Shown piece after piece: positions 2,099 to 22,255 of a stretch of DNA of 32,000 bases. The DNA is taken from positions 1 to 32,000 of the forward strand of contig DGGR01000006.1 of NCBI GenBank assembly GCA_002392285.1, read 5' to 3'. Each line of letters opens with the position of its first letter. Position 1 is the stretch's first letter. The position numbers and the translations under genes were made by a program. Source of the stretch: Verrucomicrobia bacterium UBA3869. GTDB lineage: Bacteria; Verrucomicrobiota; Verrucomicrobiia; Opitutales; UBA9783. Below the pieces are notes generated by a model, which saw only the letters and a list, made by a program, of their open reading frames with translations, had not been told where the DNA came from and ran no database searches.

Positions 2099-3661
2099 TT
2101 ACAGCGTTGAGTATTGATTGTGTGCAATCAAGGGATGACGTTCGCACCGGATGCGTTGGTTAGCCGTTAGGTATTCCAAGAGCTTAAACACATCTTCGGT
2201 TCGGTCATCCAACTGAAGCTCATGCGCCAGTTGTTCTGCCGTAAATGAAACCGTGGGATGCTTCTGTAAATACATTAAAATAGCCTGTTGTTGCTCTAAA
2301 TAAACGCGAGCTGCTTTTTTCCCCGCTTCCACCCCTGGTTGATGGTAAGCGTTGATGTGGATAAAATTGGCATAAAAACCAACCGTTCGCTCAAATAAAG
2401 CAATGAGTGCACCTAAGCTTTTAGCATCCAGTTGTTGGAGCGTGATGGTGATGGATGGGCAATGTACTTCCGTTAAGGCATCGCGGGTTCCAAGCAAAAA
2501 CCCTTCTAGAAAATCGTTGCTAGTAAAAGTTTTTTCCACCAAAACCTTGCTGGGGTGATAGGGGCGCTGAACCTCAATAAACGTTACGAAGGCATCCCGT
2601 AAGCCATCCCGCAATTGTTGAATGTACGCATGTTGGTCGGTCGAGCCTTTGTTGCCATAAACCGTTAGCCCTTGGTTGACTTCCTGACCATCCATGGTTA
2701 AGCGCTTGCCTAGCGATTCCATGATTAATTGCTGCAAATAACGCGGGAACAGAACCAATGCGTCTTTGTAAGGCAGTACCACCATATTACGTTGCCCATG
2801 ACCACCGGAACAAATGTACCAAGCTAAGGCTAATAACAGTGCTGGGTTGTGCATTACTGAATCCGAACGGGTAAGGCGATCCATTTCAGCGGCGCCTTCC
2901 ACGAGCTCATCGATGTCAATTCCGCACAATCCTGCCGGCAATAAGCCAACGTTGCTACACCAGCTGGTTCTTCCGCCAACCCAATCCCATAGCGGGAAAC
3001 GGGCTAACCACTGCTCTTTTTGTGCGGTTTTGTCTAATTGGCTGCCGGGACAGGTGATGGCAATGGCTTGATGAGCGAAATCGAGGTGAAGGGAACGGAA
3101 CCGTGCTTGTGCCTCCATCAGGGCGTTACGGGGCTCAGCTGTGCTCCCCGACTTTGAGGTTACCAACACGAGGGTCTTATCTAAACGCTCCTGTAAGCGA
3201 TTTAAGGTGCGTTGAATGCCATCAGGATCCGTATTATCGATAAATACAGCCGATAATCCTTTGTTTTTTGGCTCTAGGGCATCGGTGAGTAATTGGGGAC
3301 CGAGTGCTGATCCTCCAATTCCGATGCACAATAAATGGGTAAAAGGCCTATCCTGAAGCACTGAATGGATAAAGGTATGCAGTTGTTCCCAATTTTGCTT
3401 CAATTCATCGTAAATAGTTGTTGTTGGTGCCAGTGAAAAGTTGCGTAACCAATAATGTCCTACCTGCCGATGTTCATCAGGATTAGCGATGGCACCTGCT
3501 TCCAGACACTCCATATCTTCCAGCGCTTTCATGATTTTAGGCTGAAAGGATTGCAGAAAGTCGTTTGTAAACCTAACTCTGCTGGTATCCAAAGCCATGT
3601 CTAAGTTCGGTAAGGGTATAAACTGTTTTTGAAACGCATCCCAATTCATATAGTTCAACAA
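2099..3661 (-). CDS. pgi: Glucose-6-phosphate isomerase (cyanobacterial/plastid-like type)
   Basis: It aligns by eye over the full length with cyanobacterial Pgi. Shared segments are EAGAIANPDE.R.VGHYWLR, IGIGGSALGP, VTSKSG.T.E, WVGGRTS, YGNKGSTDQHAY.QQLR and NAYHQPGVEAGKKAA. An alternative start is the ATG at 3649 (MNWDAF). Confidence 0.95.
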   Translation of the reverse strand: MLNYMNWDAFQKQFIPLPNLDMALDTSRVRFTNDFLQSFQPKIMKALEDMECLEAGAIANPDEHRQVGHYWLRNFSLAPTTTIYDELKQNWEQLHTFIHSVLQDRPFTHLLCIGIGGSALGPQLLTDALEPKNKGLSAVFIDNTDPDGIQRTLNRLQERLDKTLVLVTSKSGSTAEPRNALMEAQARFRSLHLDFAHQAIAITCPGSQLDKTAQKEQWLARFPLWDWVGGRTSWCSNVGLLPAGLCGIDIDELVEGAAEMDRLTRSDSVMHNPALLLALAWYICSGGHGQRNMVVLPYKDALVLFPRYLQQLIMESLGKRLTMDGQEVNQGLTVYGNKGSTDQHAYIQQLRDGLRDAFVTFIEVQRPYHPSKVLVEKTFTSNDFLEGFLLGTRDALTEVHCPSITITLQQLDAKSLGALIALFERTVGFYANFIHINAYHQPGVEAGKKAARVYLEQQQAILMYLQKHPTVSFTAEQLAHELQLDDRTEDVFKLLEYLTANQRIRCERHPLIAHNQYSTL

Positions 3662-3708
3662 CTAACGATTTTTTGTGTTTATTTCACTGGTAAGCTCAAA
3701 AGATGCCA

Positions 3709-5664
3709 TTATCTCAAACGCCTTTGGATGTTTTGTTCGATTGCGGTTTTAATCGCTTCAAGTTGCTCCTTAACGCTTTGTTGGGCAGCACTTACATCCC
3801 CATTGCTAACTGGGGCTGTCCCGAACAGATACCATTTGATTTTAGGTTCAGTTCCGCTGGGGCGCACAGCTACTTCAAAGTTATTGGCTAGGCGGAATCG
3901 GATAAAGTCGGCTTTGGGAACTTGTTCGCCATCTTCATCGCTTTCATTGTGTTCGTTGAGATAATCGATGGTTTCTTTAACCGCCTGTTGTGCAATGGTA
4001 GCTGGAGGTTGTTGTCGATAAGAGTGCATCAAAGCTTGAATGCTTGCCATACCCTCTGACCCTTCAAACGTATGGCTTAACAACGCCTCTTTGAAATAAC
4101 CATACTTTCGATAAATGTTATTGAGGTAATCGGAAAAGGTGATTCCTTCGCGCTTGAAGCATGCAATCAGTTCGTAAGCCATCAAGGTAGCTGCATTCCC
4201 ATCCTTATCCCGAACTGCATCATTGGCCAAAAATCCACCGCTTTCTTCGGCTGACAACAGAAGAGCAGTTGAATGGCGCAGTAGGTTGTTAAATCGGGCT
4301 TCAGGTGTGCATCGCATATAATCAACCTGAATGCCTTGTGTGGCTCGTTCATGCTGCAACCATTGCTGTTCATAACGGAGCAACTTACCCCCAATCCACT
4401 TAAAGCCCGTGTGGGTGTTGATGCAACGGATTCCATTGGCATTTGCAATAGCCTCGAGCAAGGGGGTCGTTACAAAGGATTTGATGATCGCAAGCTTAGC
4501 GCCTTTGGAAGGAATACGCCCTAATTTCATGAGCGTGGTTAAACGGTATTCAGCCAATAGCACGGCAATGGTATTGCCGCTTAACAGTTGCCATTGCCCT
4601 TGCGCATCCTTCAGCATCATTGCCATGCGATCCCCATCCGGATCGGTTGCAATAATACCATCTGCCTGGCTTTTTTTGGCTTCCTCCAACGCAACGGTCA
4701 ATGCGTTTGGGTTACTGGGGTCAAGCGTGGTCAGGTTAGGGAATGCGCCGTTGAATGCTTTTTGCGATTCGACAATTTGAAATGACCGGCTTAGCTCTTT
4801 CATCAGAGGCATGATGCAAACCGAGCCAGTGCCATGCAATGGCGTATAAACCACCTGGGGAGCGCAGCTTTTGTCCGCCAACAATTGAGTGTCTAATAGG
4901 ACGCTTTTGCAGGTTTCACGATACGCTTGTTCAACGTTTTCGGGGATATAGAAACAGCCGTCGATGGAGGGCGTTAAAAAGGGAGGAGTGGCTTCGTAAG
5001 GTACTTGTTCGATTGACTTGATAATGTCCTCTGCACAGGAACCATTGATTTGCGCGCCATCTTCTAAATATACCTTATAGCCGTTATCGTGAAAGGGATT
5101 GTGGCTGGCGGTAATCATAACGCCTGCTGTAGCTCTTAGATAGCGTACCGAAAAACTTAATTGGGGCGTTGACCGTGGACCATTAAAAATATAAACGATT
5201 CCGCCTAATTTTAACCAAGTCGATGCGGTGAGTTCGCAAAAGTGTTTTGAAAAATAACGTGAATCGTAAGAAATAACCAAGGATGGGGGGCGCGGGTAAT
5301 CGCTAAAATGATGTTTGCAATAAGCGAATAGGCCCAGGGTCGCTCGTATAACGTTAAAATCGTTGATGCAGTAAGTCCCAACAGCTGCATGCTGGTAGGT
5401 ATTGCCTGATTTTTCTGCGCTTGTACTGATCGAACCGATGGTGCGTCCGCGCATTCCAGCTGTTCCAAACGCAATGATTTTGAAAAATCGTTCGTTTAAC
5501 TCATGCCATTGCTGCTGCTCAATGAGCTCACGTAAACTATCTGACGCCCAATTGGGCAAGCCAGGCATAGCAAGAAATTGGCAAATAAATTGAGCGGCCG
5601 ATGAGGAGAGTTGATGGTTATGAAGTGCTTCTTCGACGGAAGCGGTTACATTACGATGCGTCAT
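3709..5664 (-). CDS. Alpha-D-phosphohexomutase (phosphoglucomutase/phosphomannomutase family)
   Basis: All four family loops are present: the catalytic Ser loop TASHNPFHDNGYK, the Mg loop ATDPDGDR, the sugar loop AEESGG and the phosphate loop RPSGTEPKIK. The start overlaps the upstream gene by 14 nt (5651-5664). Confidence 0.9.
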   Translation of the reverse strand: MTHRNVTASVEEALHNHQLSSSAAQFICQFLAMPGLPNWASDSLRELIEQQQWHELNERFFKIIAFGTAGMRGRTIGSISTSAEKSGNTYQHAAVGTYCINDFNVIRATLGLFAYCKHHFSDYPRPPSLVISYDSRYFSKHFCELTASTWLKLGGIVYIFNGPRSTPQLSFSVRYLRATAGVMITASHNPFHDNGYKVYLEDGAQINGSCAEDIIKSIEQVPYEATPPFLTPSIDGCFYIPENVEQAYRETCKSVLLDTQLLADKSCAPQVVYTPLHGTGSVCIMPLMKELSRSFQIVESQKAFNGAFPNLTTLDPSNPNALTVALEEAKKSQADGIIATDPDGDRMAMMLKDAQGQWQLLSGNTIAVLLAEYRLTTLMKLGRIPSKGAKLAIIKSFVTTPLLEAIANANGIRCINTHTGFKWIGGKLLRYEQQWLQHERATQGIQVDYMRCTPEARFNNLLRHSTALLLSAEESGGFLANDAVRDKDGNAATLMAYELIACFKREGITFSDYLNNIYRKYGYFKEALLSHTFEGSEGMASIQALMHSYRQQPPATIAQQAVKETIDYLNEHNESDEDGEQVPKADFIRFRLANNFEVAVRPSGTEPKIKWYLFGTAPVSNGDVSAAQQSVKEQLEAIKTAIEQNIQRRLR

Positions 5665-7477
5665 GCAAATACAATCCCTGTAAGGTTTTAGGTTTTGGAT
5701 CCAGCTGTTTCCAGGCTTGAATGAAATCTACTTGATTATCAGCAAATAACGGACCAATTTCCATGAGAGGTGTCGGCAAATTCGTTGAAGACTCGCTCTC
5801 GCTAGCACTGACTTCAAGCGATTCGCCAGCTGCTTGGAGCCACCGATGCCAGCGATTAATTTGGTCGCGCTGACAGGTTTCGAGCGTATCCTTGCCGACA
5901 GCATTTTTAACCGGACTAAACTCATCCTTGCGGTCTACTTCCCATAAAAGCGGACGGGTAGCGACCGGTAATACGTCAAAAATGAACTGTTCTAACTTAT
6001 GACCTTCGGTTGTGTAGGTCGTTTGAGATTGAGGGTCCCAAATAGGTATTTTTTTCCGACACACATGATAAGGGAGTGCCAATTGCGCGCATTTTTGAAT
6101 AAATTCGGTTGTAATCAGATGGATTCCAGTGTTGCCAAAGCGGTAACGAAGCGCGCCTGTTGCGGTCACTTCTTGCGATAAGGCTTCTGGAAATTGATTG
6201 TATTCAATCAGCCGCAATTGATCGGCGTCCTGTACCAACAATCCTACCCGTTCTTGCGGGTCGGTTTTAACCACTACTTTGGTCGAAAAAGAGGATTGGG
6301 ATAAGCAGTGAGTGCCTAAAAACAGGGGGTCGTCCAAATGAATCAGGGGATTATCTACCTGAAAATAATAAATCGATGTAATTCCTAGGGATTTGAAAAG
6401 CTCGATGTATCCAGCATGTTCTAAGGCTTTAAACAACCCACCATGTCCATTGGGTAGAAAACAAATGTTGCCATCTGCTTTTAAAGCGCACTGACCATCG
6501 TTCAAAAACGCAGGAATGCTTCCTTGTTTGAAAAAGTGAATATAATGCGGGTCGTACCACGCTTGTTTGGCAAATGCGATTTGCGTAGCGGTATCGGTTT
6601 CTTCACTGGTCATAATAAACCAATGGAAAGGGCGTTGGTAGCGGCGTTGAAGCGCTTTTAGCTTTTCGGCAAAAACCTGATAAAGCGGTTTGTGCTGTAG
6701 AGGGGTTACAGGAACCAACCCTTTGGGGCCGTTAAATCCTAAGCGAGAGCCTAATCCACCCGCGACGGTTAAAAACGCAACGGATCCCTTACTGAAGCAA
6801 TCGATTCCTGCTTGTAACGTGCTTTGGGGTTTATATCCCTGAGCTGCTAGGGTGTCGGGATGAAGGCTGGTTGGCTCAACCCAATGCGTTCCATCCAATT
6901 CCTCAGCAGTTTCGCTTAGTGTGTTGATTAAGCGCTTCCATTCGTTCAAGGGTACTTGTTGCGCCGAAGACCAAAAATGCTGCTGTTGGTCGGGATTTAA
7001 GCACTTCAGCAGCTCATTAATAGAAGGATTGAGTTCCTTGAAAGCCGTTTGAAATGCCGATGGGGTATCAAAAAAAGAATCGTTAACGGAGTTCATTAGC
7101 ATTGGGTGCTTCCAGGAATTGTGGGGAGCGCTTTCAGGCAAAGACCGATCAACTTCTTGTAACAAGGCAAAGGTACGGTGAGCTTTTTGCAGTTCCTTAT
7201 CCCATACGAACGAAAGCCGTGGGGTTTGTTTCATCCGCACTTCTTTCCCAATAGCGTCCTGTATGTTTTTGCGGAGTTTGATGAGCAACTTAAGTGCTTG
7301 TTCTTTCTGCTCTATTTGATAGACGGAAAAATAGACGTCAGCGACTTTTAAGTTATCCGAAGCGGTCACGCGTGTAATAGTGATACTCATGGCTTCCGAT
7401 GCGTAATGTTTAAGCAAATAATCGCCAATAACCCGTTTGAGTAACTCATTCACCCGAATGATGCGCAAATTGGTCAT
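5651..7477 (-). CDS. rbfA: In-frame fusion of an N-terminal ribosome-binding factor A (about 110 aa) to a C-terminal UDPGP-family UDP-sugar/UDP-GlcNAc pyrophosphorylase (eukaryote type)
   Basis: The start is set at the ATG at 7477-7475, which forms an ATGA overlap with the infB stop. The RbfA part reads LRIIRVNELLKRVIGDYL...VADVYFSV...TPRLSFVWD. There is no stop codon before the UDPGP part, which carries LTVAGGLGSRLG, MTSEET, PNGHGG and YFQVDNPL. Internal ATGs at 7102 and 7096 are preceded by GGAAG. Confidence 0.8.
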   Translation of the reverse strand: MTNLRIIRVNELLKRVIGDYLLKHYASEAMSITITRVTASDNLKVADVYFSVYQIEQKEQALKLLIKLRKNIQDAIGKEVRMKQTPRLSFVWDKELQKAHRTFALLQEVDRSLPESAPHNSWKHPMLMNSVNDSFFDTPSAFQTAFKELNPSINELLKCLNPDQQQHFWSSAQQVPLNEWKRLINTLSETAEELDGTHWVEPTSLHPDTLAAQGYKPQSTLQAGIDCFSKGSVAFLTVAGGLGSRLGFNGPKGLVPVTPLQHKPLYQVFAEKLKALQRRYQRPFHWFIMTSEETDTATQIAFAKQAWYDPHYIHFFKQGSIPAFLNDGQCALKADGNICFLPNGHGGLFKALEHAGYIELFKSLGITSIYYFQVDNPLIHLDDPLFLGTHCLSQSSFSTKVVVKTDPQERVGLLVQDADQLRLIEYNQFPEALSQEVTATGALRYRFGNTGIHLITTEFIQKCAQLALPYHVCRKKIPIWDPQSQTTYTTEGHKLEQFIFDVLPVATRPLLWEVDRKDEFSPVKNAVGKDTLETCQRDQINRWHRWLQAAGESLEVSASESESSTNLPTPLMEIGPLFADNQVDFIQAWKQLDPKPKTLQGLYLHDAS

Positions 7478-9651
7478 AATTCCGGCAAACTTGAAACCTT
7501 TTTGTAGCATTCAATCAAATCACCCTCTTGGCAATCGGATGCAGCGTCTTCCAATCCAATTCCACATTCGGTTCCGGATTTGACTTCTGCCACATAATCC
7601 TTGAAGTGTTTGAGGGTATATGCTTTGGTTTCGGTAATGATTTTCCCTTTGCGAATCAGGCGGACAAATGCATCGCGAACGATTTGCCCTGATACCACCA
7701 TACATCCAGCAATCGTACCTTTGGATAAAGTAATGACCTTACGGATTTCAGCAGACCCAAGCTTGGTTTCGCTCCATTCTGGTTCTAGCAATTCACGCAT
7801 GGCATTTCTTACCTGCTCAATAAGTTCGTAGATAATGTTATGCTGAATCATGCGCACGCCCTTTTGTTTAGCTGCGGCTTGCACTCCATTGGCTGGTTTG
7901 GTGTTGAATCCAACGATAATCGCTTTACCTGCATGAGCGGTTTGAATATCGTTGAGCGTAATTTGTCCGACGCGGGTATCGATAATATTGAGCGCTACCT
8001 TATCGCTATGAATGCCCTTTAGGCAGGCTTCTAGCGCCTCTAAACTACCATGGACGTCGGAACGAAGTAGAACTTTCAAAGTTTTTTGCTGCTGGGTTTC
8101 CATAGCAGCCATCAAATCATCAATGCTGGAAATTTTATGAACATTGTTGCTTTGATTCTGCTTCAGTTCGCGTTCACATGCTTCTGCTTCCTTCCGGGCT
8201 TCTTTTTCGTTTTTAGAGCCTCGGAAGGTACAGCCTGCAGAAGGCATGGTGACCCATCCCGTAATTTGAACGGGTGTTGCCGGTGTAGCTTGAGCCATGC
8301 GCTTGCCATGTTCATCCAACAAACAGCGAACCTTGCATACATGAGTACCACTAACAAGGGCATCTCCTGGCTTTAACGTTCCGCTGGTGATAATGGCGGT
8401 TGTTACAATCCCTTGACCCTCTTCCGTGCGGGATTCAACCACTACACCTTCCGGTGTTCCTTTAGGATTGGCTTTTAATTCCATCATTTCAGCCTGCAAT
8501 AACACCAACTGGAGTAATTTATCAAGGTTGGTCCCTTTGAGAGCCGAAATTTCGGTGCATAGCGTATCGCCTCCCCATTCTTCTGGAGCAATCCCGTTTG
8601 CTTGCATCTGTTGTTTAATGCGATCAATGTTGGCGCCCTTAACATCCATTTTGTTGATGGCAACCACCACAGGTACATTTTCTTTCTGTGCCAATTGCAG
8701 GGATTCTTTGGTTTGAGGCATGAAGCCATCATCAGCCGCAACCACCAAAATAATGATGTCGGTTACGGTTGCTCCGCGTTGGCGGATATTTGAAAATACA
8801 GCATGTCCCGGAGTATCGAGGAAGGTAATCTTTTTCCCTTCCACCTCTACTTGATAAGCTCCAATGTGCTGGGTGATTCCACCGGCTTCTTTGGCTGCCA
8901 CATTGGCTTTACGCAGGGTGTCTAATAGGGTGGTTTTCCCATGGTCGACGTGGCCTAAAATGCACACAATGGGTGGGCGTGGCTCTAAATGATCGGCCGG
9001 TTCAACTTTGGGTTTAACAGGGACCGGTTGAACGTTGCGTTCCTGAGAACGGCGTTTGGTTTCAACCGTAAAGTGATACTTGTCTGCTAGTACCTTTAGG
9101 GCATTTTCATCCAAAACCTGACCCATGGATGCAAAAATCTTTTGATCCATTAAATCCCTAATGAGGGTAAAGGGCTTAACCTCTAATAGGTTAGCTAGTT
9201 CGGTTAAGGTAATTGGGGGCTTAATGACCCGGTTTTGCTCCATTTTGGCTGCATCCTTGTTGGCAATCGAACCTGCTGCGCTTGGTGTATTTTCGGGCTT
9301 TGCAACAGCTTTTGGGGCGGTCGCTGGTGCGGGGCGAGCAGCGATGGGTGCAGCCGGCGCAAAACTTTTCTTAAATGCATTTAAGGCAGTTATGGATTGA
9401 GAACCTCCTAGGTTTTTAGGGGAGGCTATTCGTACAGGAGCGCTTCCTATTAAAGGTTTTTTGATCGTAGGCGAAGCAACATGGGTTGATTGAGCATTGC
9501 TTTTCACCTTCTTCAATAACGCATTTGCATCGGTATCCGATAGGGTAGAAGCTGTCTCTGGCAGTGCAATACCGTACTGTTTAATCAATAAGCGGACACT
9601 TTTAATATCCTTATGCAGTTGATGAGCTAATTGATAGATGCTAACGGTCAT
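7474..9651 (-). CDS. infB: Translation initiation factor IF-2
   Basis: The G-domain motifs are [17 protein letters not shown] and NKMD. The N-terminal region is Ala/Pro-rich and low in complexity. The gene sits in the canonical position after nusA. Confidence 0.97.
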
Positions 9652-9668
9652 GGTGCGTTTTAAATTAC

Positions 9669-10940
9669 TTACTCGTTGCTTTGCGTCCCCTGAGCTTGAA
9701 GTTTATTGATGATCTTGTCGTAATCCTCCATGTTGAGTTCAGCAGCTTTAAAATCTTCTGCGGTTAAGCTACTCAGTACTTCTGGACTATTGATACCCAT
9801 ATCTACCAATTTAGCAGCGGCTACATCCGATATGCCTGCAAATTGGATCAGTGCTTGCATCGCTTGAATCTTTTTATCTTCAAAGCTTAGGTTGATGCTA
9901 TCCGCATGCTCTACTTTGATTTCGTATCCGAGTAATTGACTGGCTAACTTTAGGTTGCGTCCGCTCTTGCCTACGAAAATAGCAAAGTCTTTTTCAGGTA
10001 ATTGAAATTGGATTGTACGCGAAGCATCATCAATCGACAGGGATTGAGGAACTGCTGGCCGTGTAATTTCACTAATAAAGGTACGCAGATCATCGGAATA
10101 ACGGATAATATCAATTTTTTCCTGTTCGCCTAATGCTTTAAGAATGCATTTAATACGTGAGCCGTGCGATCCGATGCACGCACCAACAGGGTCAATGCTA
10201 GAATCGGACGATGTAACGCAAATTTTGGTTCTATATCCTGGATCTCTTACAATGGCTTTGATTTGAATCCGTGCGGGGCGTCCGTCTGACGAAACCAATT
10301 CCGGGATTTCGCGCTCTAATAATTTAATAACAAAGCCTGGTGCGGTACGGGATAATACCAATTCAGGGCCATGAGGGGTTTCCTTGATGCTTTGTAGTAA
10401 ACAATCAATGGGATCGCCTGGTTGGAATTTATCGGACCAAATAGCTTGTTTGTGAAACAAGGTGCCTTCTGCTTTTCCAAAATCGATGATCAAATTTCCG
10501 TGTTCGCTGTAGCGCATAACTCCTTGGATGATCGTGCCTACTCGATCTTGGAATTGTTCGTAAATATGCTCTTTTTCAAAACGACGAACGCTTTGGTTGA
10601 TCATTTGACGAACCGTTTGCGCTGCAATACGTCCCAATGACTCTAATTTAAGCGGTTCTTCTATAATATCCCCCAGTTTAGCTTTTGAATTTTTCTTCAA
10701 AGCCTTACTGATATGCATTTCGACATTGTCGTTAATAACCGAATCTACGACTTTATACTGAGTATAAGCTTGTAAAACTCCAGTTTTTGGATCGATAGCT
10801 ACACGAATTTCTTTCGCATCCTGATTATCCTTCAGGGCAGCTTTTTTAATGGCATTAACAATCGCAGCGATCATGTCTTCGCGGCTAATACCTTTTTCGC
10901 GTTCCATGTATTCAAAAATGGGCAACAGATCGTCTTTCAT
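9669..10940 (-). CDS. nusA: Transcription termination/antitermination factor NusA
   Basis: The start is set at the ATG at 10940 (MKDDLLPIFEYMEREKGISREDMIAAIVNAIKKA, a typical NusA N-terminus). S1 and tandem KH regions follow (for example DPVGACIGSHGSRIK). The 21 upstream codons of the track ORF contain a promoter-like sequence. Confidence 0.95.
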   Translation of the reverse strand: MKDDLLPIFEYMEREKGISREDMIAAIVNAIKKAALKDNQDAKEIRVAIDPKTGVLQAYTQYKVVDSVINDNVEMHISKALKKNSKAKLGDIIEEPLKLESLGRIAAQTVRQMINQSVRRFEKEHIYEQFQDRVGTIIQGVMRYSEHGNLIIDFGKAEGTLFHKQAIWSDKFQPGDPIDCLLQSIKETPHGPELVLSRTAPGFVIKLLEREIPELVSSDGRPARIQIKAIVRDPGYRTKICVTSSDSSIDPVGACIGSHGSRIKCILKALGEQEKIDIIRYSDDLRTFISEITRPAVPQSLSIDDASRTIQFQLPEKDFAIFVGKSGRNLKLASQLLGYEIKVEHADSINLSFEDKKIQAMQALIQFAGISDVAAAKLVDMGINSPEVLSSLTAEDFKAAELNMEDYDKIINKLQAQGTQSNE

Positions 10941-10955
10941 AAAAACTATTGCCTT

Positions 10956-10984
10956 ACTCAATAAAATCAGACGCTGTTTGTCAA
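10956..10984 (-). promoter_or_regulatory. Putative nusA-operon promoter
   Basis: On the minus strand a perfect -35 TTGACA (10984-10979) is followed by a 17-nt spacer and TTGAGT (10961-10956), about 15 nt upstream of the nusA ATG. No rimP-like gene precedes nusA. Confidence 0.35.
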
Positions 10985-11152
10985 ACTTTCCCCAAGTAAG
11001 CACGGATGGGCTTAAGCAAAGCGTTAAGCGGAGTAAGGTGGAAGAAGGGATAGGGTGGATGAAAGGTGAGCATTTTATTTTTTCGCTTGCGGTTTCTAAA
11101 ATAAAAGCTTTACGATACCTGCATCATTTGTAATGGTTTTCTGTTAAGAGCT

Positions 11153-11372: not shown

Positions 11373-12370
11373 ATGCGGGCGCAGGTTGGGGTAAGTCCTA
11401 AAGAAGCAGCTGCGTGGTTGGTTAAAGGAGAACCGGTAGCGTTACCAACCGAAACCGTTTATGGGTTAGCCGCCCCTTTGTCTGCGGTTGATACGATTAA
11501 GAAAATTTATACGCTCAAGCAGCGTCCTCAAGAAAATCCATTGATTGTCCACGTATTAGGTGTGGAACAGTTACAATGGGTTGCTGAGGTTACTCCTTTG
11601 GTGCTACGTTTGGTAAAGCATTTTTGGCCCGGGCCATTAACCCTTGTGCTAAAAAAAAAGCTTGTGTGCCAGCTTGCGTAACGGCAGGTCAACCGTCAGT
11701 AGCGGTTCGTTGCCCATCGAGTTCTTTATTTCGAGCAGTTATTGAGTTGATGGGAGAACCCTTGGTAGCTCCGAGCGCTAACCGTTTCCAGCAGATCAGT
11801 CCTACATCAGCTCAGCATGTTGCGCAAGGAATGGGGGATGTAGTGGCTTACATACTCGATGGAGGTCCGTGTTCCTTTGGATTAGAATCAACCATTCTTT
11901 CTCTGGTATCGGAAGATCAACCTACCTTGTTGCGTCAAGGACCCATTACCCAAGAGTCGTTGGAGGCGTTTTTGGAACGTCCTATCCAAACACTTTCGTC
12001 CGTATCGGTTAAGGGAGTGCATTTATCTCCAGGGCTTTATAAACGTCATTATAGCCCGCAAACCCCGCTGTATTTAGTGCGTCATTTAGAGCAATTTCAG
12101 GCGCCGATTGAGCTCCGAAAGACCTTTGAAGTGGGTGCTGCGCATGTATTTTTGTATCCCCCGTGCCATCTTTTGGCGTCCAATGAGTTTGTTTTAAGTC
12201 CAAAGGGGGATTTGTCGGAAGTAGCCACCTCTTTATTTGATTGCTTGCAGCGCTTGGATAACCAACAGTGGCAGTCTATTTGGATGGAAAAGGCCCCAGA
12301 TGCAGGCATAGGAAAGGCGATTAACGACCGTTTGTCGCGCGCCGCTGTTCGGGATTTAAGCGAACTTTAG
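11373..12370 (+). pseudogene. tsaC: L-threonylcarbamoyladenylate synthase Sua5/TsaC (long form), split by a frameshift in an A9 tract at 11651-11659
   Basis: ORF 11373..11681 carries the YrdC-domain N-terminus (PTETVYGLAA, ...PLIVHV, FWPGPLTLVLKKK). ORF 11624..12370, in the frame entered by adding one nucleotide, continues with VTAGQPSVAVRCP, APSANRFQQISPTSAQHV and DGGPCSFGLESTI. Inserting one A into the A9 run gives a continuous 332-aa protein. Confidence 0.85.
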
Positions 12371-12569: not shown

Positions 12570-14075
12570 GTGGAGGAGACTAGTCAGTTTTCAAAGCTTA
12601 GGGGAATCTTTTTTCCTATCTATGCTTATGAGCTCAAAAAAATCGTTCCTTTAGCTTGTATTTTATTCTTTTCGCTTTTTAACCATTATTGTCTCAAAAA
12701 CATCAAGGATTCTTTGGTGGTAACAGCGGTGGGGGCGGAAGCAATTGCCTTTATCAAATTGTTTTTGGTGCCGCCGGCAGCGATTTTATTCATGTTGGTG
12801 TATACCAAGGTCAGCGATCGCTTGAAGAACGAGCATCTGTATTATGCAACTTTGGGTTCGTTTGTTAGCTTTTTTGTCCTATTTGTATTGGTTTTGTACC
12901 CCCTAAAGAACTATGTGTGTCCATCGGCGGACAGCATCACTCGGCTTCAAACGCAATTCCCATCGTGTGGTTTGGCGTTTGCGCTTATTGGGGTTTGGCC
13001 TTATGCGCTGTTCTTTATCTTTGCAGAATTGTGGAGTACGTTTATTTTGTCGCTTTCGTTTTGGCAATTTATGAACCAAATTACGGAGTTGCAGGAAGCA
13101 AAGCGTATTTATGGGGTTTTGTTGTTATTAGGGCAGGGAGCGGTAACGATTTCAGGAGGGGTTGGCTTTATCGCTTCAAATATCCGTGAAAAGGTGTCCT
13201 GTGCTGATCCTTGGCAAATAACGCTTTATTGGCTGATTGGGTCAGTGACCGTAACCAGCATTTTGTCGATGTGCATTTATCATTGGATTTATCGACATGT
13301 TTTGACCGACAAACGATTTTACAATAAGCCGGAATTGCCCGGATTTCACGTAAAAGATAAAAAGAAAAGTAGCCTTTGGAACAGCTTAAAGGTGGTTGTG
13401 CGTTCGCATTATGTTCGCTTACTCATCTTCTTGGTATTCTGTTATAGCGTCTGCGATAACATCTTAGAGAATTTCTGGAAACATGCAGTTAAGGTTATTT
13501 ATCCCAACATCAACGATTATAATTCCTTTATGAGCGCGTACACGTTTATATACGGTATACTGTCTATGGGTGTGGTGCTCATTACCGGCTATATATTCCG
13601 GCGATTCCAATGGGGAGTTGGGGCTATGCTAACTCCTATGGTTGTGTTGGTGGGGGGTGTTTGCTTATTTCTGTCGTTTTTGGGCGAACAGTTCTTGTCG
13701 GGGAGCGTGGGAATGGTGGTAGGAATTCAAACGACCATTGTGTATGTTGGATTGATAACGTTAGTTCTTGATAAAGGGTTTAAAATGTCCTTTTTCGATA
13801 TGAGCAAAGAGATGGCGTTTATCCCCTTGGATGATGAGCTTAAGGTAAAAGGTAAGGCAATTACGGATGTGTTTGGTTATCGCTTTGGAAAATCTTTTGG
13901 TTCGGGCTTACAGGTGATTCTGTTGTCCTTGGTAAGCGCTTTATCAGGAGTTAAGGCAACCTACGAAAGCATTGCGATCTATGCGTTTGTGGTATTTTTA
14001 ACCTGTGCGACCGTGTGGGTTATTTCGGTGTTCCGGTTGAATCGCAAAATTCAAAGAAGTCGAGAATTATCCTAA
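12570..14075 (+). CDS. tlc: TLC-family nucleotide transporter (ATP/ADP translocase type, as in Chlamydiae, Rickettsiales and plastids)
   Basis: The start is GTG. The N-terminus FSKLRGIFFPIYAYELKKIVPL...NIKDSLVV matches, from memory, the conserved start of chlamydial Npt and rickettsial Tlc proteins. The 501 aa contain about 12 hydrophobic segments. Confidence 0.85.
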   Translation: MEETSQFSKLRGIFFPIYAYELKKIVPLACILFFSLFNHYCLKNIKDSLVVTAVGAEAIAFIKLFLVPPAAILFMLVYTKVSDRLKNEHLYYATLGSFVSFFVLFVLVLYPLKNYVCPSADSITRLQTQFPSCGLAFALIGVWPYALFFIFAELWSTFILSLSFWQFMNQITELQEAKRIYGVLLLLGQGAVTISGGVGFIASNIREKVSCADPWQITLYWLIGSVTVTSILSMCIYHWIYRHVLTDKRFYNKPELPGFHVKDKKKSSLWNSLKVVVRSHYVRLLIFLVFCYSVCDNILENFWKHAVKVIYPNINDYNSFMSAYTFIYGILSMGVVLITGYIFRRFQWGVGAMLTPMVVLVGGVCLFLSFLGEQFLSGSVGMVVGIQTTIVYVGLITLVLDKGFKMSFFDMSKEMAFIPLDDELKVKGKAITDVFGYRFGKSFGSGLQVILLSLVSALSGVKATYESIAIYAFVVFLTCATVWVISVFRLNRKIQRSRELS

Positions 14076-18561: not shown

Positions 18562-19872
18562 ATGGATGTGAAAAAATGGCTCAGTCAATGGGGCGTAATT
18601 CTGGCGCTTTGTGTCAGTATTATCGTGGTTTGCTTTTTGCGTTGCTGTGGCTGGCAGAATGCGACTCTAACGCAAGATTTTGTGCAGGTATGTGAGCTCA
18701 TCGGAAAAGTTTTTATGAACGGGCTCAAGATGCTTGTTGTGCCATTGATTGCGGTTTCCCTCATCTGTGGCATGATGGGATTTGGTTCAAAATCTGAATT
18801 TAAACGCTTGGGGCTCAAAACCTTCTTGTTTTATTTTTTAAGCTGTTTTTCGGCCGTGTTGATTGGCTTGTTCTTGGTCAACGTGTTGCGTCCAGGATGC
18901 GTTGAAAAGGATTTAGCGGCTAAAATTCTAGGGCAAGCCAATGTGCTGCCTCAGCAGTTTATTCAATTGGCACACATGGATTCTTCCCGCCTATCGGACT
19001 TTTTTTTGCGCATTATTCCTTCCAACGTGATTCATGCGGCTTCGGATAATACCCAAATTTTGGGTATCATTACCTTTGCTTTGCTATTTGGTTTCTTTGT
19101 CGGGCGTTTACCGGAAGACTTACGGAAACCGCAATTGGTGTTTTGGGAAGGGATCCAGCATGTTTTGCGCGATATTACCCGCATTGTCATTGCATTTTCA
19201 CCTATCGGGGTGTTTGGGTTGGTGACTCCCATTTTGCTGCATACCGGTATCGGTGTTATCCGCCCTCTGTTGTATTTCGTTATGACAGTGTTGATCGGAT
19301 TTTTCCTGTATATGTTCGGGGTCTTGTATCTTCTGTTGCGTTTTGTTGGCAAACTAAAACCTTGGGCGCATTATAAAGCCATGTTTCCGGTTATGTTGAT
19401 GGCGTTTTCAACCTCCTCATCGGCAGCCGTTTTGCCTTTGGCGTTGGATAGAGTAGAAACAGTAGCGAAGGTATCACCGCGTATCGCACGCTTTACCTTG
19501 CCTTTGGGCATTACCATCAATATGTGTGGTACGGCGTTGTATGAATGCGTGGTGGTGCTATTCATTGCCCAGTTGTACCAAGTGACTCAGGGAATTTCTT
19601 TCGGGGTGCTCGATCAATTGATTGTGGTACTGATGGCGTTATTAACCTCCGTTGGGGTTGCAGGAATTCCAGCATCAGCTTTGATTGCTATTACCATGAT
19701 TGTCAGTTCTGTTGGCTTACCGATCGAATCAATCGGGGTTATTTGGGTGGTCGAACGTTTATTGGATATGTTCCGTACGCTGGTTAATGTCTTTAATGAT
19801 ACCTGTGGAACGGTGATTATTGCTCGAACCGAAGGCGAAACCTTGGCGTATACGACGTCTCATTCTGCTTAA
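18562..19872 (+). CDS. Dicarboxylate/amino acid:cation symporter (DAACS family, GltT/SstT-like)
   Basis: This is a polytopic membrane protein with family motifs FMNGLKMLVVPLI, SSSAAVLP, NMCGTALYE, GVAGIPASAL and DMFRTLVNVFND. Its substrate cannot be assigned by eye. Confidence 0.85.
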   Translation: MDVKKWLSQWGVILALCVSIIVVCFLRCCGWQNATLTQDFVQVCELIGKVFMNGLKMLVVPLIAVSLICGMMGFGSKSEFKRLGLKTFLFYFLSCFSAVLIGLFLVNVLRPGCVEKDLAAKILGQANVLPQQFIQLAHMDSSRLSDFFLRIIPSNVIHAASDNTQILGIITFALLFGFFVGRLPEDLRKPQLVFWEGIQHVLRDITRIVIAFSPIGVFGLVTPILLHTGIGVIRPLLYFVMTVLIGFFLYMFGVLYLLLRFVGKLKPWAHYKAMFPVMLMAFSTSSSAAVLPLALDRVETVAKVSPRIARFTLPLGITINMCGTALYECVVVLFIAQLYQVTQGISFGVLDQLIVVLMALLTSVGVAGIPASALIAITMIVSSVGLPIESIGVIWVVERLLDMFRTLVNVFNDTCGTVIIARTEGETLAYTTSHSA

Positions 19873-20792
19873 TGTACGATGGAATGACCGAACGAAAACG
19901 ATGCGTTGGGAAGGAACAATGGAGCGCATTAATCGAATCCTTCTTGGGTTATTTAGCGATTGAATGTGGTTTGTCGGCCAACACACAAGCTTCCTACCGT
20001 TATGATTTACAGCAGTTTTGTGAGCTAAACGCAGGCGTTTCGGTAGAGCGTATCACCCCAGAGCATATTGACCAATGGCAGCAAGCGTTACTGTCGATGA
20101 GTCCAACCTCTCGTGCGCGAAAACTGGCCTGTTTGCGGCGTTTTTTTACCTTTTTATCTAACAGTGGGCAGTTAAAAACGAATCCAATGGTTCAGGCGGT
20201 CGCTCCTAAATGCGCGCGTCCTTTGCCGCAAACCTTATCAGTCAATGAGGTGGAAGCCTTGCAGAAAAGCATGAGTTTGGTAAGCCCTCAAGGGATGCGC
20301 AATCGCGCCATGATTTCCTTGATGTATGGCTGTGGGTTGCGTATTTCAGAGGTATGTGGTTTAACCTTGCAGGCGCTGTTCCTTGAGGAAGATGCGCTCA
20401 AAATTTACGGTAAAGGCAGCAAGGAGCGTTGGGTCCCATTAGGGTCAGTCGCCAAAGAGCATTTGCAGTATTATTTGGTTCATGGACGTCCTAAGTTGTT
20501 GCGGCCAAAAAGCGGCAATTTTGTGTTCTTAACCCAACGCGGTACGCCGGTTTCCCGCAAAACCCTTTGGTGTTATTTAAAAGCTTATGGGCAAGCGGTC
20601 GGCTTAGGCCATTCCGTCAAACCCCATGAGTTGCGCCATACCTTTGCAACACATTTGCTGTGTAATGGAGCAGATTTACGCAGCATTCAAGCAATGCTAG
20701 GGCACAGCAATATTTCCACAACTCAAATTTATACGCACCTCAACCCAACGCAGTTGCGCGAAACCTACGACCGTTATCATACGCGCGCGTAA
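19872..20792 (+). CDS. xerD: Tyrosine recombinase XerD-like (chromosome dimer resolution)
   Basis: The N-terminal SAM-like domain reads FLGYLAIECGLSANTQASYRYDL. The catalytic region reads GLRISE..., HELRHTFATHLLCNGADLRSIQAMLGHSNISTTQIYTHL. The ATG shares one nucleotide with the upstream stop (TAATG). XerD versus XerC is a by-eye call. Confidence 0.8.
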   Translation: MYDGMTERKRCVGKEQWSALIESFLGYLAIECGLSANTQASYRYDLQQFCELNAGVSVERITPEHIDQWQQALLSMSPTSRARKLACLRRFFTFLSNSGQLKTNPMVQAVAPKCARPLPQTLSVNEVEALQKSMSLVSPQGMRNRAMISLMYGCGLRISEVCGLTLQALFLEEDALKIYGKGSKERWVPLGSVAKEHLQYYLVHGRPKLLRPKSGNFVFLTQRGTPVSRKTLWCYLKAYGQAVGLGHSVKPHELRHTFATHLLCNGADLRSIQAMLGHSNISTTQIYTHLNPTQLRETYDRYHTRA

Positions 20793-21155: not shown

Positions 21156-21184
21156 GTGAGTTTTTCGGTCGATTGTTAAGAATA

Positions 21185-22255
21185 ATGAATAAGATACGCT
21201 TGCCAAGGTTTATTGCATGGGTATTGTTGGGGCTATTCCCAATGGGAGCCTTACAAGCAGCGACTATTCATGCGTTAGCAGATGCAGCAAGAGCGGAGGT
21301 CGCTGATAAAGTTAAAGAAAAGCAAGAAGTAGAAAAGGTTTTCGCAGCCGCTGAAAAACCTGCACAGCCACATCCGGTTGAGCAGGAGGTTCCTAAAGTA
21401 CCTGCAAAAGCAACCGCGCCGGTTGATTCATTTGCGATAAAAGCTGCTCAGGTTAATGATAAGGTTATTTTTTGTAATGAGGTGTATGACCGTATGAATG
21501 CTTGGAATGTGTCGTACGCTAAAGCATTGGATAGCTTGATCGAAGCACAGCTCGTTTTACAGTATTTCGAAAAGAATAAAGGAAAGATTCCTGAAGCCCA
21601 TATTGAGTTGGAAATGGAAGGAATCGAGGAGAAAAATTTCAAAGGGGATCGTAGCCGTTTGCATCAAGCGTTGAGCAGCGAAGGGAAATCCTTATACGGC
21701 GTTAAAGAAAACATCCGCAATTCCATTATTATTGATGTTGTACGCGGACAAATTATGCGCGAAGGAACTAATGCGGCTCCTAAGAAGATTCGTCGGTATT
21801 ATGATACCCATTTGGATCAATTTAAAGTTAATGCGCGCTACTGCATCCAACACAGCGGGTTTAAAGATTCTGACAGTATTCAAACGGATAACGGAGAAAT
21901 GACCAAGGGTGATTATTTCCGAAAATTATTGATGAAGAAGATGGAGCTAGCTAAGATGCAAAAGTTGTTAGATAGCTTTAAAAACAAGCCGGTTTGGTAT
22001 GATGAAACGGAACTTGATCCGGAGCTATGCAAATTACCCGTTGGTGGTCATACGCAGTATCAAAAGAGTGGCGATCTATGGGTGGTGAGTACGCTGGTAG
22101 ATAAGCAAGAAGCTTATGTAAAATCTTATACGGATGTTTATACCGAAATTGAACGTTATTTAAAGCGGCAAAATGGGCAAAAGCGTTATCGTGATTTCAT
22201 AGAACAGTTGCGCAATGACGCTTCGATTGAAATTTATCCGCAGCCTGCTCATTAA
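21185..22255 (+). CDS. Secreted SurA/PpiD-like periplasmic chaperone candidate with a degenerate or absent parvulin domain
   Basis: The start is set at the ATG at 21185, since the track start is a TTG. The signal peptide reads MNKIRLPRFIAWVLLGLFPMGALQAA. An Ala/Pro/Glu-rich linker follows. The next segment resembles a SurA N-terminal domain (AAQVNDKVI...LDSLIEAQLVLQYFEKNKGKI...EIE). The assignment is by pattern only. Confidence 0.4.
   Translation: MNKIRLPRFIAWVLLGLFPMGALQAATIHALADAARAEVADKVKEKQEVEKVFAAAEKPAQPHPVEQEVPKVPAKATAPVDSFAIKAAQVNDKVIFCNEVYDRMNAWNVSYAKALDSLIEAQLVLQYFEKNKGKIPEAHIELEMEGIEEKNFKGDRSRLHQALSSEGKSLYGVKENIRNSIIIDVVRGQIMREGTNAAPKKIRRYYDTHLDQFKVNARYCIQHSGFKDSDSIQTDNGEMTKGDYFRKLLMKKMELAKMQKLLDSFKNKPVWYDETELDPELCKLPVGGHTQYQKSGDLWVVSTLVDKQEAYVKSYTDVYTEIERYLKRQNGQKRYRDFIEQLRNDASIEIYPQPAH

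What the first reader, a model, noticed from the sequence alone, without database searches (positions are those of the whole stretch)
5651..7477. In-frame fusion of ribosome-binding factor A to a eukaryote-type UDP-sugar pyrophosphorylase
Seen in sequence: the rbfA reading frame starts with an ATGA overlap on the infB stop. It never meets a stop at the usual RbfA end (about 110 aa) and runs through a linker of about 20 aa into a complete UDPGP-family enzyme (VAGGLGSRLG, PNGHGG, FQVDNPL), 608 aa in total. Internal ATGs at 7102 and 7096 are preceded by GGAAG and lie where a stand-alone UDPGP would be expected to start. A free enzyme might therefore also be made by internal initiation. A ribosome-maturation factor covalently joined to a sugar-nucleotide enzyme is not an architecture I know of. 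It could be a recent stop-codon loss tolerated in a reduced genome, or a real bifunctional or regulatory coupling.
Basis: partly seen in the sequence, partly recalled or inferred. Interest (0 to 1): 0.7.

Follow-up and report, generated by a model that had tools for sequence, protein, structure and literature searches.

The report
Strain-specific frameshift fusing rbfA to UDPGP
In one clonal strain of an uncultured Opitutales bacterium, a single extra C near the end of the ribosome-maturation gene rbfA shifts it into the frame of the sugar-nucleotide enzyme gene that overlaps it, giving a real 608-codon fused gene; every relative keeps two genes, so it looks like a recent accident, not an evolved bifunctional protein.

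Summary
ORF 7477..5651 (- strand) is 608 codons. It starts in an ATGA overlap with infB and carries a full RbfA domain (aa 5-105) and a full PF01704 UDPGP domain. The enzyme is UAP1/AGX-like.

The cause is one inserted C. The window has GCTCCCCAC (7126-7123), where all relatives have GCTCCCAC or GCTCCTAC. In relatives, rbfA (126 aa) ends at a TAA that overlaps the enzyme's start (ATGCTAATG) in another frame.

It is not an assembly error. The identical fused ORF occurs in six fetched contigs from four samples plus one NCBI MAG, with two genotypes that differ by one SNP.

It is confined to that clone. The nearest unfused relatives are 98.3% identical over 4.9 kb, and their only indel against the window is this C. 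No unfused locus from 98% down to about 52% identity, no RbfA homologue (29, all 115-142 aa), and none of the top 150 representative UDPGP homologues shows the fusion.

The internal GGAAG and ATGs at 7102 and 7096 are unchanged, so free enzyme is probably still made. The new in-frame CCC-C is a known +1 slippery codon, and a slip there would restore native RbfA.

Verdict: a real, young, probably neutral or mildly deleterious gene fusion. Interest is low.

The parts
5651..7477 (-). Fused rbfA-UDPGP ORF, 608 codons plus stop
   Evidence: ORF list and sequence. Pfam RBFA plus UDPGP. The exact protein is on record from NCBI, ENA and Logan.
7163..7465 (-). RbfA KH-type domain (aa 5-105)
   Evidence: PF02033 at 69.3 bits (cut-off 34.7) and TIGR00082 at 54.1 bits (cut-off 51.15). 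Aa 1-118 are identical to the stand-alone 126-aa RbfA of L011.
7123..7126 (-). CCCC run, the site of the 1-nt insertion. In frame it reads CCC (Pro118) followed by C.
   Evidence: The window and L006-L010 have GCTCCCCAC. L001, L002, L004, L011 and L012 have GCTCCCAC, and L013 has GCTCCTAC. It is the only indel inside a called gene in 12 kb against L001, and the only indel in 4.9 kb against L011.
7103..7123 (-). Seven frameshifted codons (HNSWKHP, aa 119-125) that replace the native RbfA tail TIPGSTQC*
   Evidence: Translations of the window and of L011/L012.
7109..7113 (-). SD-like GGAAG, 6 nt upstream of ATG 7102 and 12 nt upstream of ATG 7096
   Evidence: Sequence. The same GGAAG is in unfused L011, L012, L013 and L004; L001 and L002 have GGAGG.
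7094..7102 (-). The two internal ATGs (7102-7100 and 7096-7094), which are the native UDPGP start codons. The second is the conserved one.
   Evidence: Stand-alone proteins start at MLMNS (483 aa) or MNS (480-481 aa). L013 and L004 have only the second ATG.
7096..7098 (-). Ancestral rbfA stop TAA (TAATG overlap with the UDPGP start), out of frame in this strain
   Evidence: Junction ATGCTAATG in L001, L002, L011 and L012, with rbfA ending at this TAA.
5651..7102 (-). UAP1/AGX-type UDP-sugar pyrophosphorylase module (483 codons, PF01704)
   Evidence: Pfam. Best PDB matches are eukaryotic UDP-GlcNAc pyrophosphorylases, 2yqc at E 7e-58, against about 1e-10 for UGPases. The AF2 model has pLDDT above 90 over most of aa 137-608.
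7474..9651 (-). infB (IF-2), upstream gene, 4-nt ATGA overlap with rbfA
9669..11003 (-). nusA, first gene of the conserved nusA-infB-rbfA block
   Evidence: ORF. NusA Pfam families on the homologous genes in L001 and L016.
3709..5664 (-). Phospho-sugar mutase (PGM/PMM family), 14-nt overlap with the end of the fused ORF
2099..3661 (-). Glucose-6-phosphate isomerase (PGI), last sugar-phosphate gene of the block

Best explanation
This is a real, recent, strain-specific gene fusion made by one inserted nucleotide.

**Ancestral state.** In this Opitutales lineage, rbfA (126 codons) and a UAP1-type UDPGP gene lie in one compact operon: nusA-infB-rbfA-UDPGP-PGM-PGI. The rbfA stop and the UDPGP start overlap (ATGCTAATG) in different frames.

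**The mutation.** In the window's strain a C was inserted into a CCC run, 21 nt upstream of the first UDPGP ATG. This moves the last codons of rbfA into the UDPGP frame. No stop lies in between, so translation from the rbfA ATG now continues through the whole enzyme.

**Shown:** the insertion, its presence in independent data sets, its absence from all relatives, and the intact domains.

**Inferred:**
- (a) Ribosomes starting at rbfA make a 608-aa RbfA-linker-UDPGP polypeptide. Only the last 8 residues of RbfA's variable tail are replaced, and the two modules fold independently, joined by a disordered linker.
- (b) Free UDPGP is still made by internal initiation at the unchanged GGAAG/ATG signals.
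- (c) A small fraction of ribosomes may slip +1 on the new CCC-C codon. That would restore the native 126-aa RbfA and its TAATG termination-reinitiation site.
- (d) The allele is neutral or mildly deleterious. It is not an adaptation that couples ribosome maturation to sugar-nucleotide synthesis.
For: **The insertion**
- There is one extra C compared with L001 and L002.
- Compared with L011 and L012, which are 98.3% identical, it is the only gap in 4892 bp, and the junction is otherwise identical.

**Not an error**
- The identical fused ORF is found in ENA assemblies ERZ12302818 and ERZ12302853, Logan assemblies of SRR873608 and SRR5322985, and NCBI MAG GCA_003521725.1 (protein HCI56904.1).
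- These are 99.98-100% identical to the window and fall into two genotypes that differ by a SNP at 8261. Both genotypes carry CCCC.

**Confined to this clone**
- All other listed members of the same 90% protein cluster are 480-483 aa stand-alone enzymes.
- Separate rbfA and UDPGP genes occur in L001, L002, L011, L012 and L013. In L004 the two reading frames are separate by translation, and the MAG annotates a 481-aa stand-alone enzyme.
- The 52-55% relatives L014 and L016 also have separate genes, and they keep the same gene order.
- None of the 120 listed of 665 homologues carries PF02033.
- All 29 RbfA homologues are single-domain proteins of 115-142 aa, apart from one 77-aa fragment.
- None of the top 150 hits among 1.84 billion representatives matches the query before residue 137. 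Eight of the longest hits carry no RBFA domain; among them are fusions to MerR, PGI and Ddl.

**Both modules look intact**
- Pfam and TIGRFAM scores are above their cut-offs.
- RbfA aa 1-118 is identical to the sister strain's. dN/dS is 0.04-0.14 in the clade.
- The AF2 model gives two confident modules joined by a segment with pLDDT below 50, aa 85-136.

**Literature**
- The part of RbfA after beta3 varies in length and sequence and points away from the KH-rRNA interface. Mitochondrial RBFA tolerates a long C-terminal extension (PMC9917171, PMC8177701).
- CCC-(U/C) is a +1 slippery proline codon (PMC7577736).
Against: - No read-level data were available, so within-sample heterogeneity (CCC against CCCC) is unknown.
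- Contig coverage labels are low (about 5.6 to 7.2).
- Some of the assemblies may derive from the same runs, so the number of truly independent samples may be only 2 or 3.
- Nothing here shows which proteins are actually made, or whether RbfA carrying a roughly 54-kDa appendage still binds the pre-30S and is released from it.
- With only 0-1 SNPs inside the fused clone, there is no power to detect selection for or against the fusion.
- The AF2 model of the RbfA C-terminal third has low confidence. The 'flexible linker' statement is therefore soft.
Confidence: 0.78

Rival explanations
1. Sequencing or assembly artefact. The extra C is an error in a short homopolymer, and the strain really has two genes.
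For: The difference is a single base in a C-run. The contigs have modest coverage (NODE cov 7.2 and 5.6). All relatives have the two-gene arrangement.
Against: The same CCCC appears in SPAdes-style ENA assemblies, in Logan assemblies of two SRA runs with widely separated accession numbers, and in an NCBI third-party MAG. It appears in two genotypes that differ by one SNP. Apart from this C, all indels against L001 over 12 kb fall outside the called genes, so the assembly is not indel-prone. A run of only 3-4 bases is not a typical error site; that last point rests on general knowledge.
Confidence: 0.04
2. Selected bifunctional or regulatory fusion. Tethering a UDP-sugar pyrophosphorylase to RbfA couples envelope or sugar-nucleotide synthesis to 30S maturation, or regulates one through the other.
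For: rbfA and the UDPGP-PGM-PGI genes are conserved neighbours in one tightly overlapping operon, down to relatives about 52% identical. Co-expression is therefore ancient. Both domains are intact.
Against: The fusion is restricted to one near-clonal genotype. The sister strain at 98.3% identity, and every other relative, is unfused. No such architecture appears in the database searches. The linker is simply the out-of-frame reading of 21 nt. A one-base indel in overlapping genes produces such a fusion automatically, without selection.
Confidence: 0.06
3. Recoding. The CCC-C created by the insertion is decoded with efficient +1 frameshifting, so the main product from the rbfA start is still the native 126-aa RbfA, and the fusion protein is a minor by-product.
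For: In frame the site reads GCT CCC CAC. CCC-(U/C) is a classical +1 slippery proline codon (PMC7577736). A +1 slip restores exactly the ancestral tail TIPGSTQC and the TAATG stop-start overlap. The neighbouring sua5 gene carries a frameshift at an A9 run that is conserved across strains, which hints that this lineage lives with frame errors.
Against: With normal m1G37 modification and EF-P, slippage at such sites is low (discussion in PMC7577736; rates are from general knowledge). No stimulatory element is evident: there is no SD-like sequence just upstream and no stop or rare codon in the A site. The site is not conserved, because relatives do not need it.
Confidence: 0.08
4. Loss of function of rbfA. 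The fusion is real, but the appended 54-kDa enzyme prevents RbfA from working on the 30S. rbfA is then in effect a pseudogene, tolerated because it is dispensable.
For: RbfA sits inside the mRNA exit channel, and its C-terminal helix reaches toward S7 (PMC8177701, PMC9917171). A bulky C-terminal domain could clash with the subunit, or hinder release by RsgA or IF3. The allele is young, so purifying selection may not yet have removed it. rbfA is non-essential in E. coli (general knowledge).
Against: The KH domain and the first 118 residues are untouched. About 30 low-confidence residues separate the modules in the model. The exit channel opens on the solvent side (PMC8177701). Mitochondrial RBFA works with a long C-terminal extension (PMC9917171).
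Confidence: 0.2

Closest known systems
Canonical stand-alone RbfA in the nusA-infB-rbfA operon
   Same: It has the same position immediately after infB, with an ATGA overlap. It has the same KH-type domain, with PF02033 and TIGR00082 above their cut-offs. Aa 1-118 are identical to the 126-aa RbfA of the sister strain.
   Different: The last 8 tail residues and the stop are replaced by 7 out-of-frame residues plus a 483-aa enzyme. The usual downstream truB is replaced in this clade by UDPGP-PGM-PGI.
Eukaryote-type UDP-N-acetylglucosamine pyrophosphorylases (UAP1/AGX1, PF01704) and their bacterial 'UDPGP type 1 family' homologues in Opitutales and Puniceicoccales
   Same: The PF01704 domain covers the catalytic core, and the glycine-rich loop is present (VAGGLGSRLG...GPKG). 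The best solved relatives are UAP1 and AGX (E 7e-58 to 1e-49), aligned from residue 21 of the 483-aa module. Hundreds of stand-alone bacterial homologues of 450-480 aa exist.
   Different: Here it is translated in frame behind RbfA. Its substrate (UDP-GlcNAc, UDP-Glc or another UDP-sugar) was not determined.
Mitochondrial RBFA with a long C-terminal extension
   Same: It is an RbfA KH domain followed by a long C-terminal polypeptide, and it still acts on the small subunit (PMC9917171).
   Different: The mitochondrial extension is a conserved, ribosome-interacting segment that occupies the mRNA path. The extension here is an unrelated metabolic enzyme acquired through a one-base frameshift in a single strain.
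Gene fusions created by indels or stop loss between overlapping or adjacent co-directional genes (a general prokaryotic fusion route; general knowledge)
   Same: Two overlapping, translationally coupled genes were merged by one nucleotide. Relatives of the same enzyme are found fused to other partners: MerR-UDPGP, UDPGP-PGI and UDPGP-Ddl.
   Different: Those other fusions were found as representatives of protein clusters, and their conservation was not examined. The partner here (a ribosome assembly factor) has no pathway link to the enzyme, and the fusion is not fixed beyond one clone.

Membership tests
RbfA (PF02033 / TIGR00082) | Profile match above the curated cut-off over the whole KH-type domain | tested here: met
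   PF02033 scores 69.3 bits against 34.7, covering profile positions 1-104 of 105. TIGR00082 scores 54.1 against 51.15.
RbfA (PF02033 / TIGR00082) | Helix-kink-helix AxG motif of the type II KH domain | tested here: met
   The sequence ...IQDAIGKEV... contains A-I-G at the position of the E. coli A-S-G motif. This was read directly from the translation; the motif is described in PMC8177701. The residue after the motif is K, not the E. coli Phe78.
RbfA (PF02033 / TIGR00082) | Small stand-alone protein (about 110-140 aa) encoded directly downstream of infB | tested here: not met
   The position after infB is met. The size is not: 608 aa here against 115-142 aa in 28 of the 29 homologues, the other being a 77-aa fragment.
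RbfA (PF02033 / TIGR00082) | Binds pre-30S and promotes 16S 3'-end and h28 maturation | not testable with these tools
   This needs ribosome binding or complementation assays.
UDPGP family, UAP1/AGX-like branch (PF01704) | PF01704 match above the cut-off, with the nucleotide-binding glycine-rich loop | tested here: met
   122.2 bits against 22. VAGGLGSRLGFNGPKG is present.
UDPGP family, UAP1/AGX-like branch (PF01704) | Closer to UDP-GlcNAc pyrophosphorylases than to UGPases or USPs | tested here: met
   PDB search: UAP1 and AGX at E 7e-58 to 6e-38, USP at 2e-14, UGPases at 1e-10 or weaker.
UDPGP family, UAP1/AGX-like branch (PF01704) | Catalyses UTP + sugar-1-phosphate to UDP-sugar + PPi, with a defined sugar specificity | not testable with these tools
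   This needs an enzyme assay. The context (PGM and PGI neighbours) fits hexose-phosphate supply but does not fix the substrate.
Conserved multidomain ('Rosetta-stone') bifunctional protein | The same domain fusion is present in several diverged lineages | tested here: not met
   It is found only in near-identical contigs (at most 1 SNP per 7.8 kb). It is absent from all relatives and from the database searches.
Programmed +1 ribosomal frameshift gene (prfB-like) | A conserved slippery site with stimulators, and a frameshift requirement conserved among orthologues | tested here: not met
   A CCC-C slippery codon exists (PMC7577736), but orthologues are in frame without it. No upstream SD-like sequence or A-site stop is present.

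The most novel reading that the evidence does not exclude
The fused allele is expressed and maintained because it is useful. One possibility is that a UDP-GlcNAc-forming enzyme tethered to RbfA is sequestered on immature 30S particles, or released from them, so that envelope-precursor synthesis tracks ribosome production. Another is that CCC-C slippage sets a tunable ratio of native RbfA to fusion protein. Either would be the first case of a ribosome assembly factor covalently coupled to a sugar-nucleotide enzyme.
Probability: 0.05. Interest if true: 0.55.

Novelty: new variant of a known kind. Interest (0 to 1): 0.2.

Why it matters
The main value is as a well-documented natural example of how overlapping, translationally coupled genes turn into a multidomain ORF through a single-base indel. 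It also shows how such an ORF gets mis-annotated: NCBI lists the 619-aa product simply as 'RbfA'.

The RbfA+UDPGP architecture itself is not seen elsewhere, but nothing indicates it is selected. If the fusion protein proved functional, it would show that RbfA tolerates a 54-kDa C-terminal cargo on the 30S. That would be of modest interest to ribosome-assembly researchers, for example for tagging.

The surrounding lineage may be more interesting than the fusion. It is an Opitutales bacterium, possibly gut-associated (one relative is a horse-faeces MAG), with a TLC ATP/ADP translocase and a conserved poly(A) frameshift in sua5.

Tried and rejected
- **JGI metagenome scan.** I scanned for the junction with a pattern that accepts both CCC and CCCC alleles. 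There were 0 hits, so it gave no extra allele counts.
- **Species-representative genome scan.** It returned only two loci: a horse-faeces Opitutales MAG at 94% protein identity, unfused, and a 42% Opitutaceae relative. It gave a taxonomic label but no further fusions.
- **Literature search for the run and assembly accessions.** SRR873608 is only listed among comparison metagenomes in a sewage study. The sample origin remains unknown.
- **Assembly artefact.** Rejected on multi-run reproducibility.
- **Weakened SD in the fused strain.** I asked whether GGAAG here, against GGAGG in L001, is a linked change. It is not: the unfused sister L011/L012 has the same GGAAG.
- **Decay since the fusion.** RbfA aa 1-118 has 0 non-synonymous differences from L011. 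UDPGP has 6 non-synonymous and 12 synonymous differences. There is no sign of decay, but the comparison has little power.
- **AF2 model.** It is informative for the enzyme. It is poor for the C-terminal third of RbfA (a beta3 region modelled as helix, pLDDT below 50). I therefore did not run fold searches or dock it on the 30S.
- **Third large protein search.** I ran no further search on the sua5 side observation.

Full report
**1. Observation**

On the - strand, infB (725 aa) ends at 7474. Its TGA shares three bases with the ATG at 7477-7475, giving ATGA. From that ATG the frame stays open for 608 codons, to a TAA at 5653-5651.

Pfam places a full RBFA domain at aa 5-105 (69.3 bits, cut-off 34.7) and a UDPGP domain at aa 231-526 (122.2 bits, cut-off 22). 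TIGR00082 rbfA also passes its cut-off.

**2. What causes it**

The best database hit, P0001, is 98% identical but only 483 aa, with PF01704 alone. Its contigs (L001 and L002, from Logan assemblies of SRR32214324 and SRR32214392) carry the same operon. There, rbfA is a separate 126-aa gene that overlaps the 483-aa enzyme gene by 7 nt, in a different frame.

The DNA alignment shows the reason. The window reads GCTCCCCAC where L001 and L002 read GCTCCCAC. That is one extra C, at window 7126-7123.

In the relatives, rbfA continues ...SAP-TTPGGTQC (TIPGSTQC in L011) and stops at the TAA of ATGCTAATG. That stop overlaps both candidate start codons of the enzyme. The TAATG overlap with the second ATG is the conserved arrangement, also seen in L013.

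In the window the extra C shifts rbfA into the enzyme's frame after Pro118. It reads HNSWKHP and then MLMNSVND..., the native N-terminus of the enzyme.

The old TAA is still present at 7098-7096. This is therefore a frameshift fusion of two overlapping genes, not a loss of a stop codon.

Over 12.15 kb, the window and L001 differ by 391 substitutions and 11 gapped positions. All gaps other than this one fall outside the called genes.

**3. Real or artefact**

The exact 608-aa protein, and the 619-aa version that NCBI annotates as 'RbfA' (HCI56904.1), are on record. They come from these sources:

- ENA assemblies ERZ12302818 and ERZ12302853
- Logan assemblies of SRR873608 and SRR5322985
- NCBI MAG GCA_003521725.1

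These contigs are 99.98-100% identical to the window. They form two genotypes that differ by a single SNP in infB (window 8261), and both carry CCCC. An error reproduced in several runs, assemblers and genotypes is very unlikely.

I could not inspect reads. Some assemblies may share runs, so I count at least 2-3 independent observations.

**4. How widespread**

The fusion is confined to that clone.

| Locus | Nucleotide identity to window | Junction |
|---|---|---|
| L011, L012 (ERZ27279893, ERZ1064552) | 98.3% over 4892 bp, one gap (the C) | 7-nt overlap; otherwise identical, including GGAAG |
| L001, L002 | 97.4-97.5% | 7-nt overlap |
| L004 (horse-faeces Opitutales MAG) | 93.8% | longer overlap |
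| L013 | 89.6% | 1-nt overlap |
| L016 | enzyme 52% identical | 11-nt spacer |
| L014 | enzyme 55% identical | 49-nt spacer |

All of these have separate genes. L014 and L016 keep the order rbfA-UDPGP-PGM-PGI-Exo_endo_phos, and L016 also shows nusA-infB upstream.

The database searches agree:

- None of the 120 listed homologues (of 665 found) carries PF02033.
- All 29 RbfA homologues found are single-domain proteins of 115-142 aa, apart from one 77-aa fragment.
- A full HMMER pass over 1.84 billion representative proteins gave 150 top hits, and none matches the query before residue 137.
- I scanned eight of the longest hits against Pfam. None has an RBFA domain. They include MerR-UDPGP, UDPGP-PGI, UDPGP-Ddl and multi-copy UDPGP proteins.

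**5. State of the two modules**

RbfA aa 1-118 is identical to the sister strain's protein. Within the clade, rbfA and the enzyme gene evolve under purifying selection, with dN/dS of 0.04-0.14.

The enzyme module is closest to eukaryotic UAP1/AGX UDP-GlcNAc pyrophosphorylases: 2yqc at E 7e-58, against about 1e-10 for UGPases. The alignment starts at residue 21 of the 483-aa module, so the native N-terminus is complete. Hundreds of stand-alone bacterial homologues exist in Opitutales and Puniceicoccales. The 'eukaryote-type' enzyme is therefore ordinary for this phylum.

An AF2 model built with homologues of both halves gives a confident enzyme (pLDDT above 90 over most of aa 137-608), a moderately confident RbfA core (about 80-89 for aa 10-84), and a low-confidence connection (below 50 for aa 85-136). 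This fits two independent modules on a flexible tether. The RbfA C-terminal third is poorly modelled, so this point is soft.

**6. How it most likely works (inference)**

Ribosomes that initiate at rbfA, probably coupled to infB termination through ATGA, no longer terminate at TAATG. They run on to make a 608-aa RbfA-UDPGP polypeptide.

The enzyme's own signals, GGAAG at 6 nt and 12 nt before the two ATGs, are unchanged from the unfused sister. Free enzyme can therefore still be made by internal initiation, although the former termination-reinitiation coupling is lost.

The insertion also created an in-frame CCC-C. CCC-(U/C) is a classical +1 slippery proline codon (PMC7577736). A +1 slip there restores exactly the ancestral tail and stop. 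I expect this to be a minor route, because no stimulatory element is visible.

RbfA binds with its KH domain in the mRNA exit channel. The part after beta3 is variable and forms a helix toward S7, and mitochondrial RBFA carries a long C-terminal extension (PMC8177701, PMC9917171). A tethered cargo may thus be tolerated, but it could also hinder binding or release. That question needs experiments.

**7. Verdict**

This is a real but evolutionarily very young frameshift fusion, seen in one clonal Opitutales strain. It is best read as a neutral or mildly deleterious accident of the overlapping gene arrangement. There is no evidence for a selected bifunctional or regulatory protein.

Its 'recent event' reading is supported, with a corrected mechanism. 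Its 'bifunctional coupling' reading is not supported.

**8. Seen in passing**

- **sua5.** The threonylcarbamoyl-AMP synthase gene is split at an A9 run (11651-11659) into 102-aa and 248-aa ORFs. The same A9 and the same split occur in L001 and L002, and L004 has the same A9 in an almost identical context. One extra A gives a complete 332-aa Sua5 with a full-length Pfam match. This suggests rescue by slippage, not a dead gene.
- **TLC translocase.** A TLC ATP/ADP translocase lies at 12570-14075 (E 1e-136).
- **Operon layout.** The usual truB after rbfA is replaced by a UDPGP-PGM-PGI sugar-phosphate block across the clade.

Noticed in passing
window 11373-12370 (+), A9 run at 11651-11659: sua5/tsaC (threonylcarbamoyl-AMP synthase) is split into two overlapping ORFs (102 aa and 248 aa) by a frameshift at a run of nine A's. 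Adding one A gives a complete 332-aa protein with a full-length Sua5_yciO_yrdC plus Sua5_C match. L001 and L002 (about 97% identical) have the same A9 and the same split gene calls, and L004 (about 93% identical) has the same A9 in an almost identical context. This looks like a conserved slippage-dependent or programmed frameshift, not an error or a dead gene.
   Followed up: partly
window 12570-14075 (+): A TLC-family ATP/ADP translocase (PF03219, E 1e-136, full length) sits in an Opitutales (Verrucomicrobiota) genome. One close relative comes from a horse-faeces MAG. This transporter is typical of energy-parasitic or intracellular bacteria, and it hints at a host-associated or protist-associated lifestyle.
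   Followed up: no
window 2099-11003 (-); L014, L016: In this clade the conserved nusA-infB-rbfA block is followed not by truB but by UDPGP-PGM-PGI and then an Exo_endo_phos gene. The overlaps are tight (4, 7 and 14 nt in the window). The order is kept down to relatives with about 52% identical enzymes.
   Followed up: partly
proteins P0210, P0250, P0263: Other bacterial relatives of this UAP-type enzyme occur as fusions with a MerR HTH domain, with phosphoglucose isomerase, and with D-Ala-D-Ala ligase. The last of these hints at a peptidoglycan or UDP-GlcNAc role for the family.
   Followed up: no
window 7478-7510 (-): NCBI's annotation of the same ORF (HCI56904.1, 619 aa, named only 'RbfA') starts at an ATG 33 nt upstream, inside infB. 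The relatives' gene calls and the Pfam alignment favour the ATGA start at 7477. The public name hides the enzyme domain.
   Followed up: yes
window 19872-20792 (+) and 21173-22255 (+): There is a tyrosine recombinase (Phage_integrase plus SAM-like N domain; it could be XerC/D-type), followed by a 360-aa ORF with no Pfam match.
   Followed up: no
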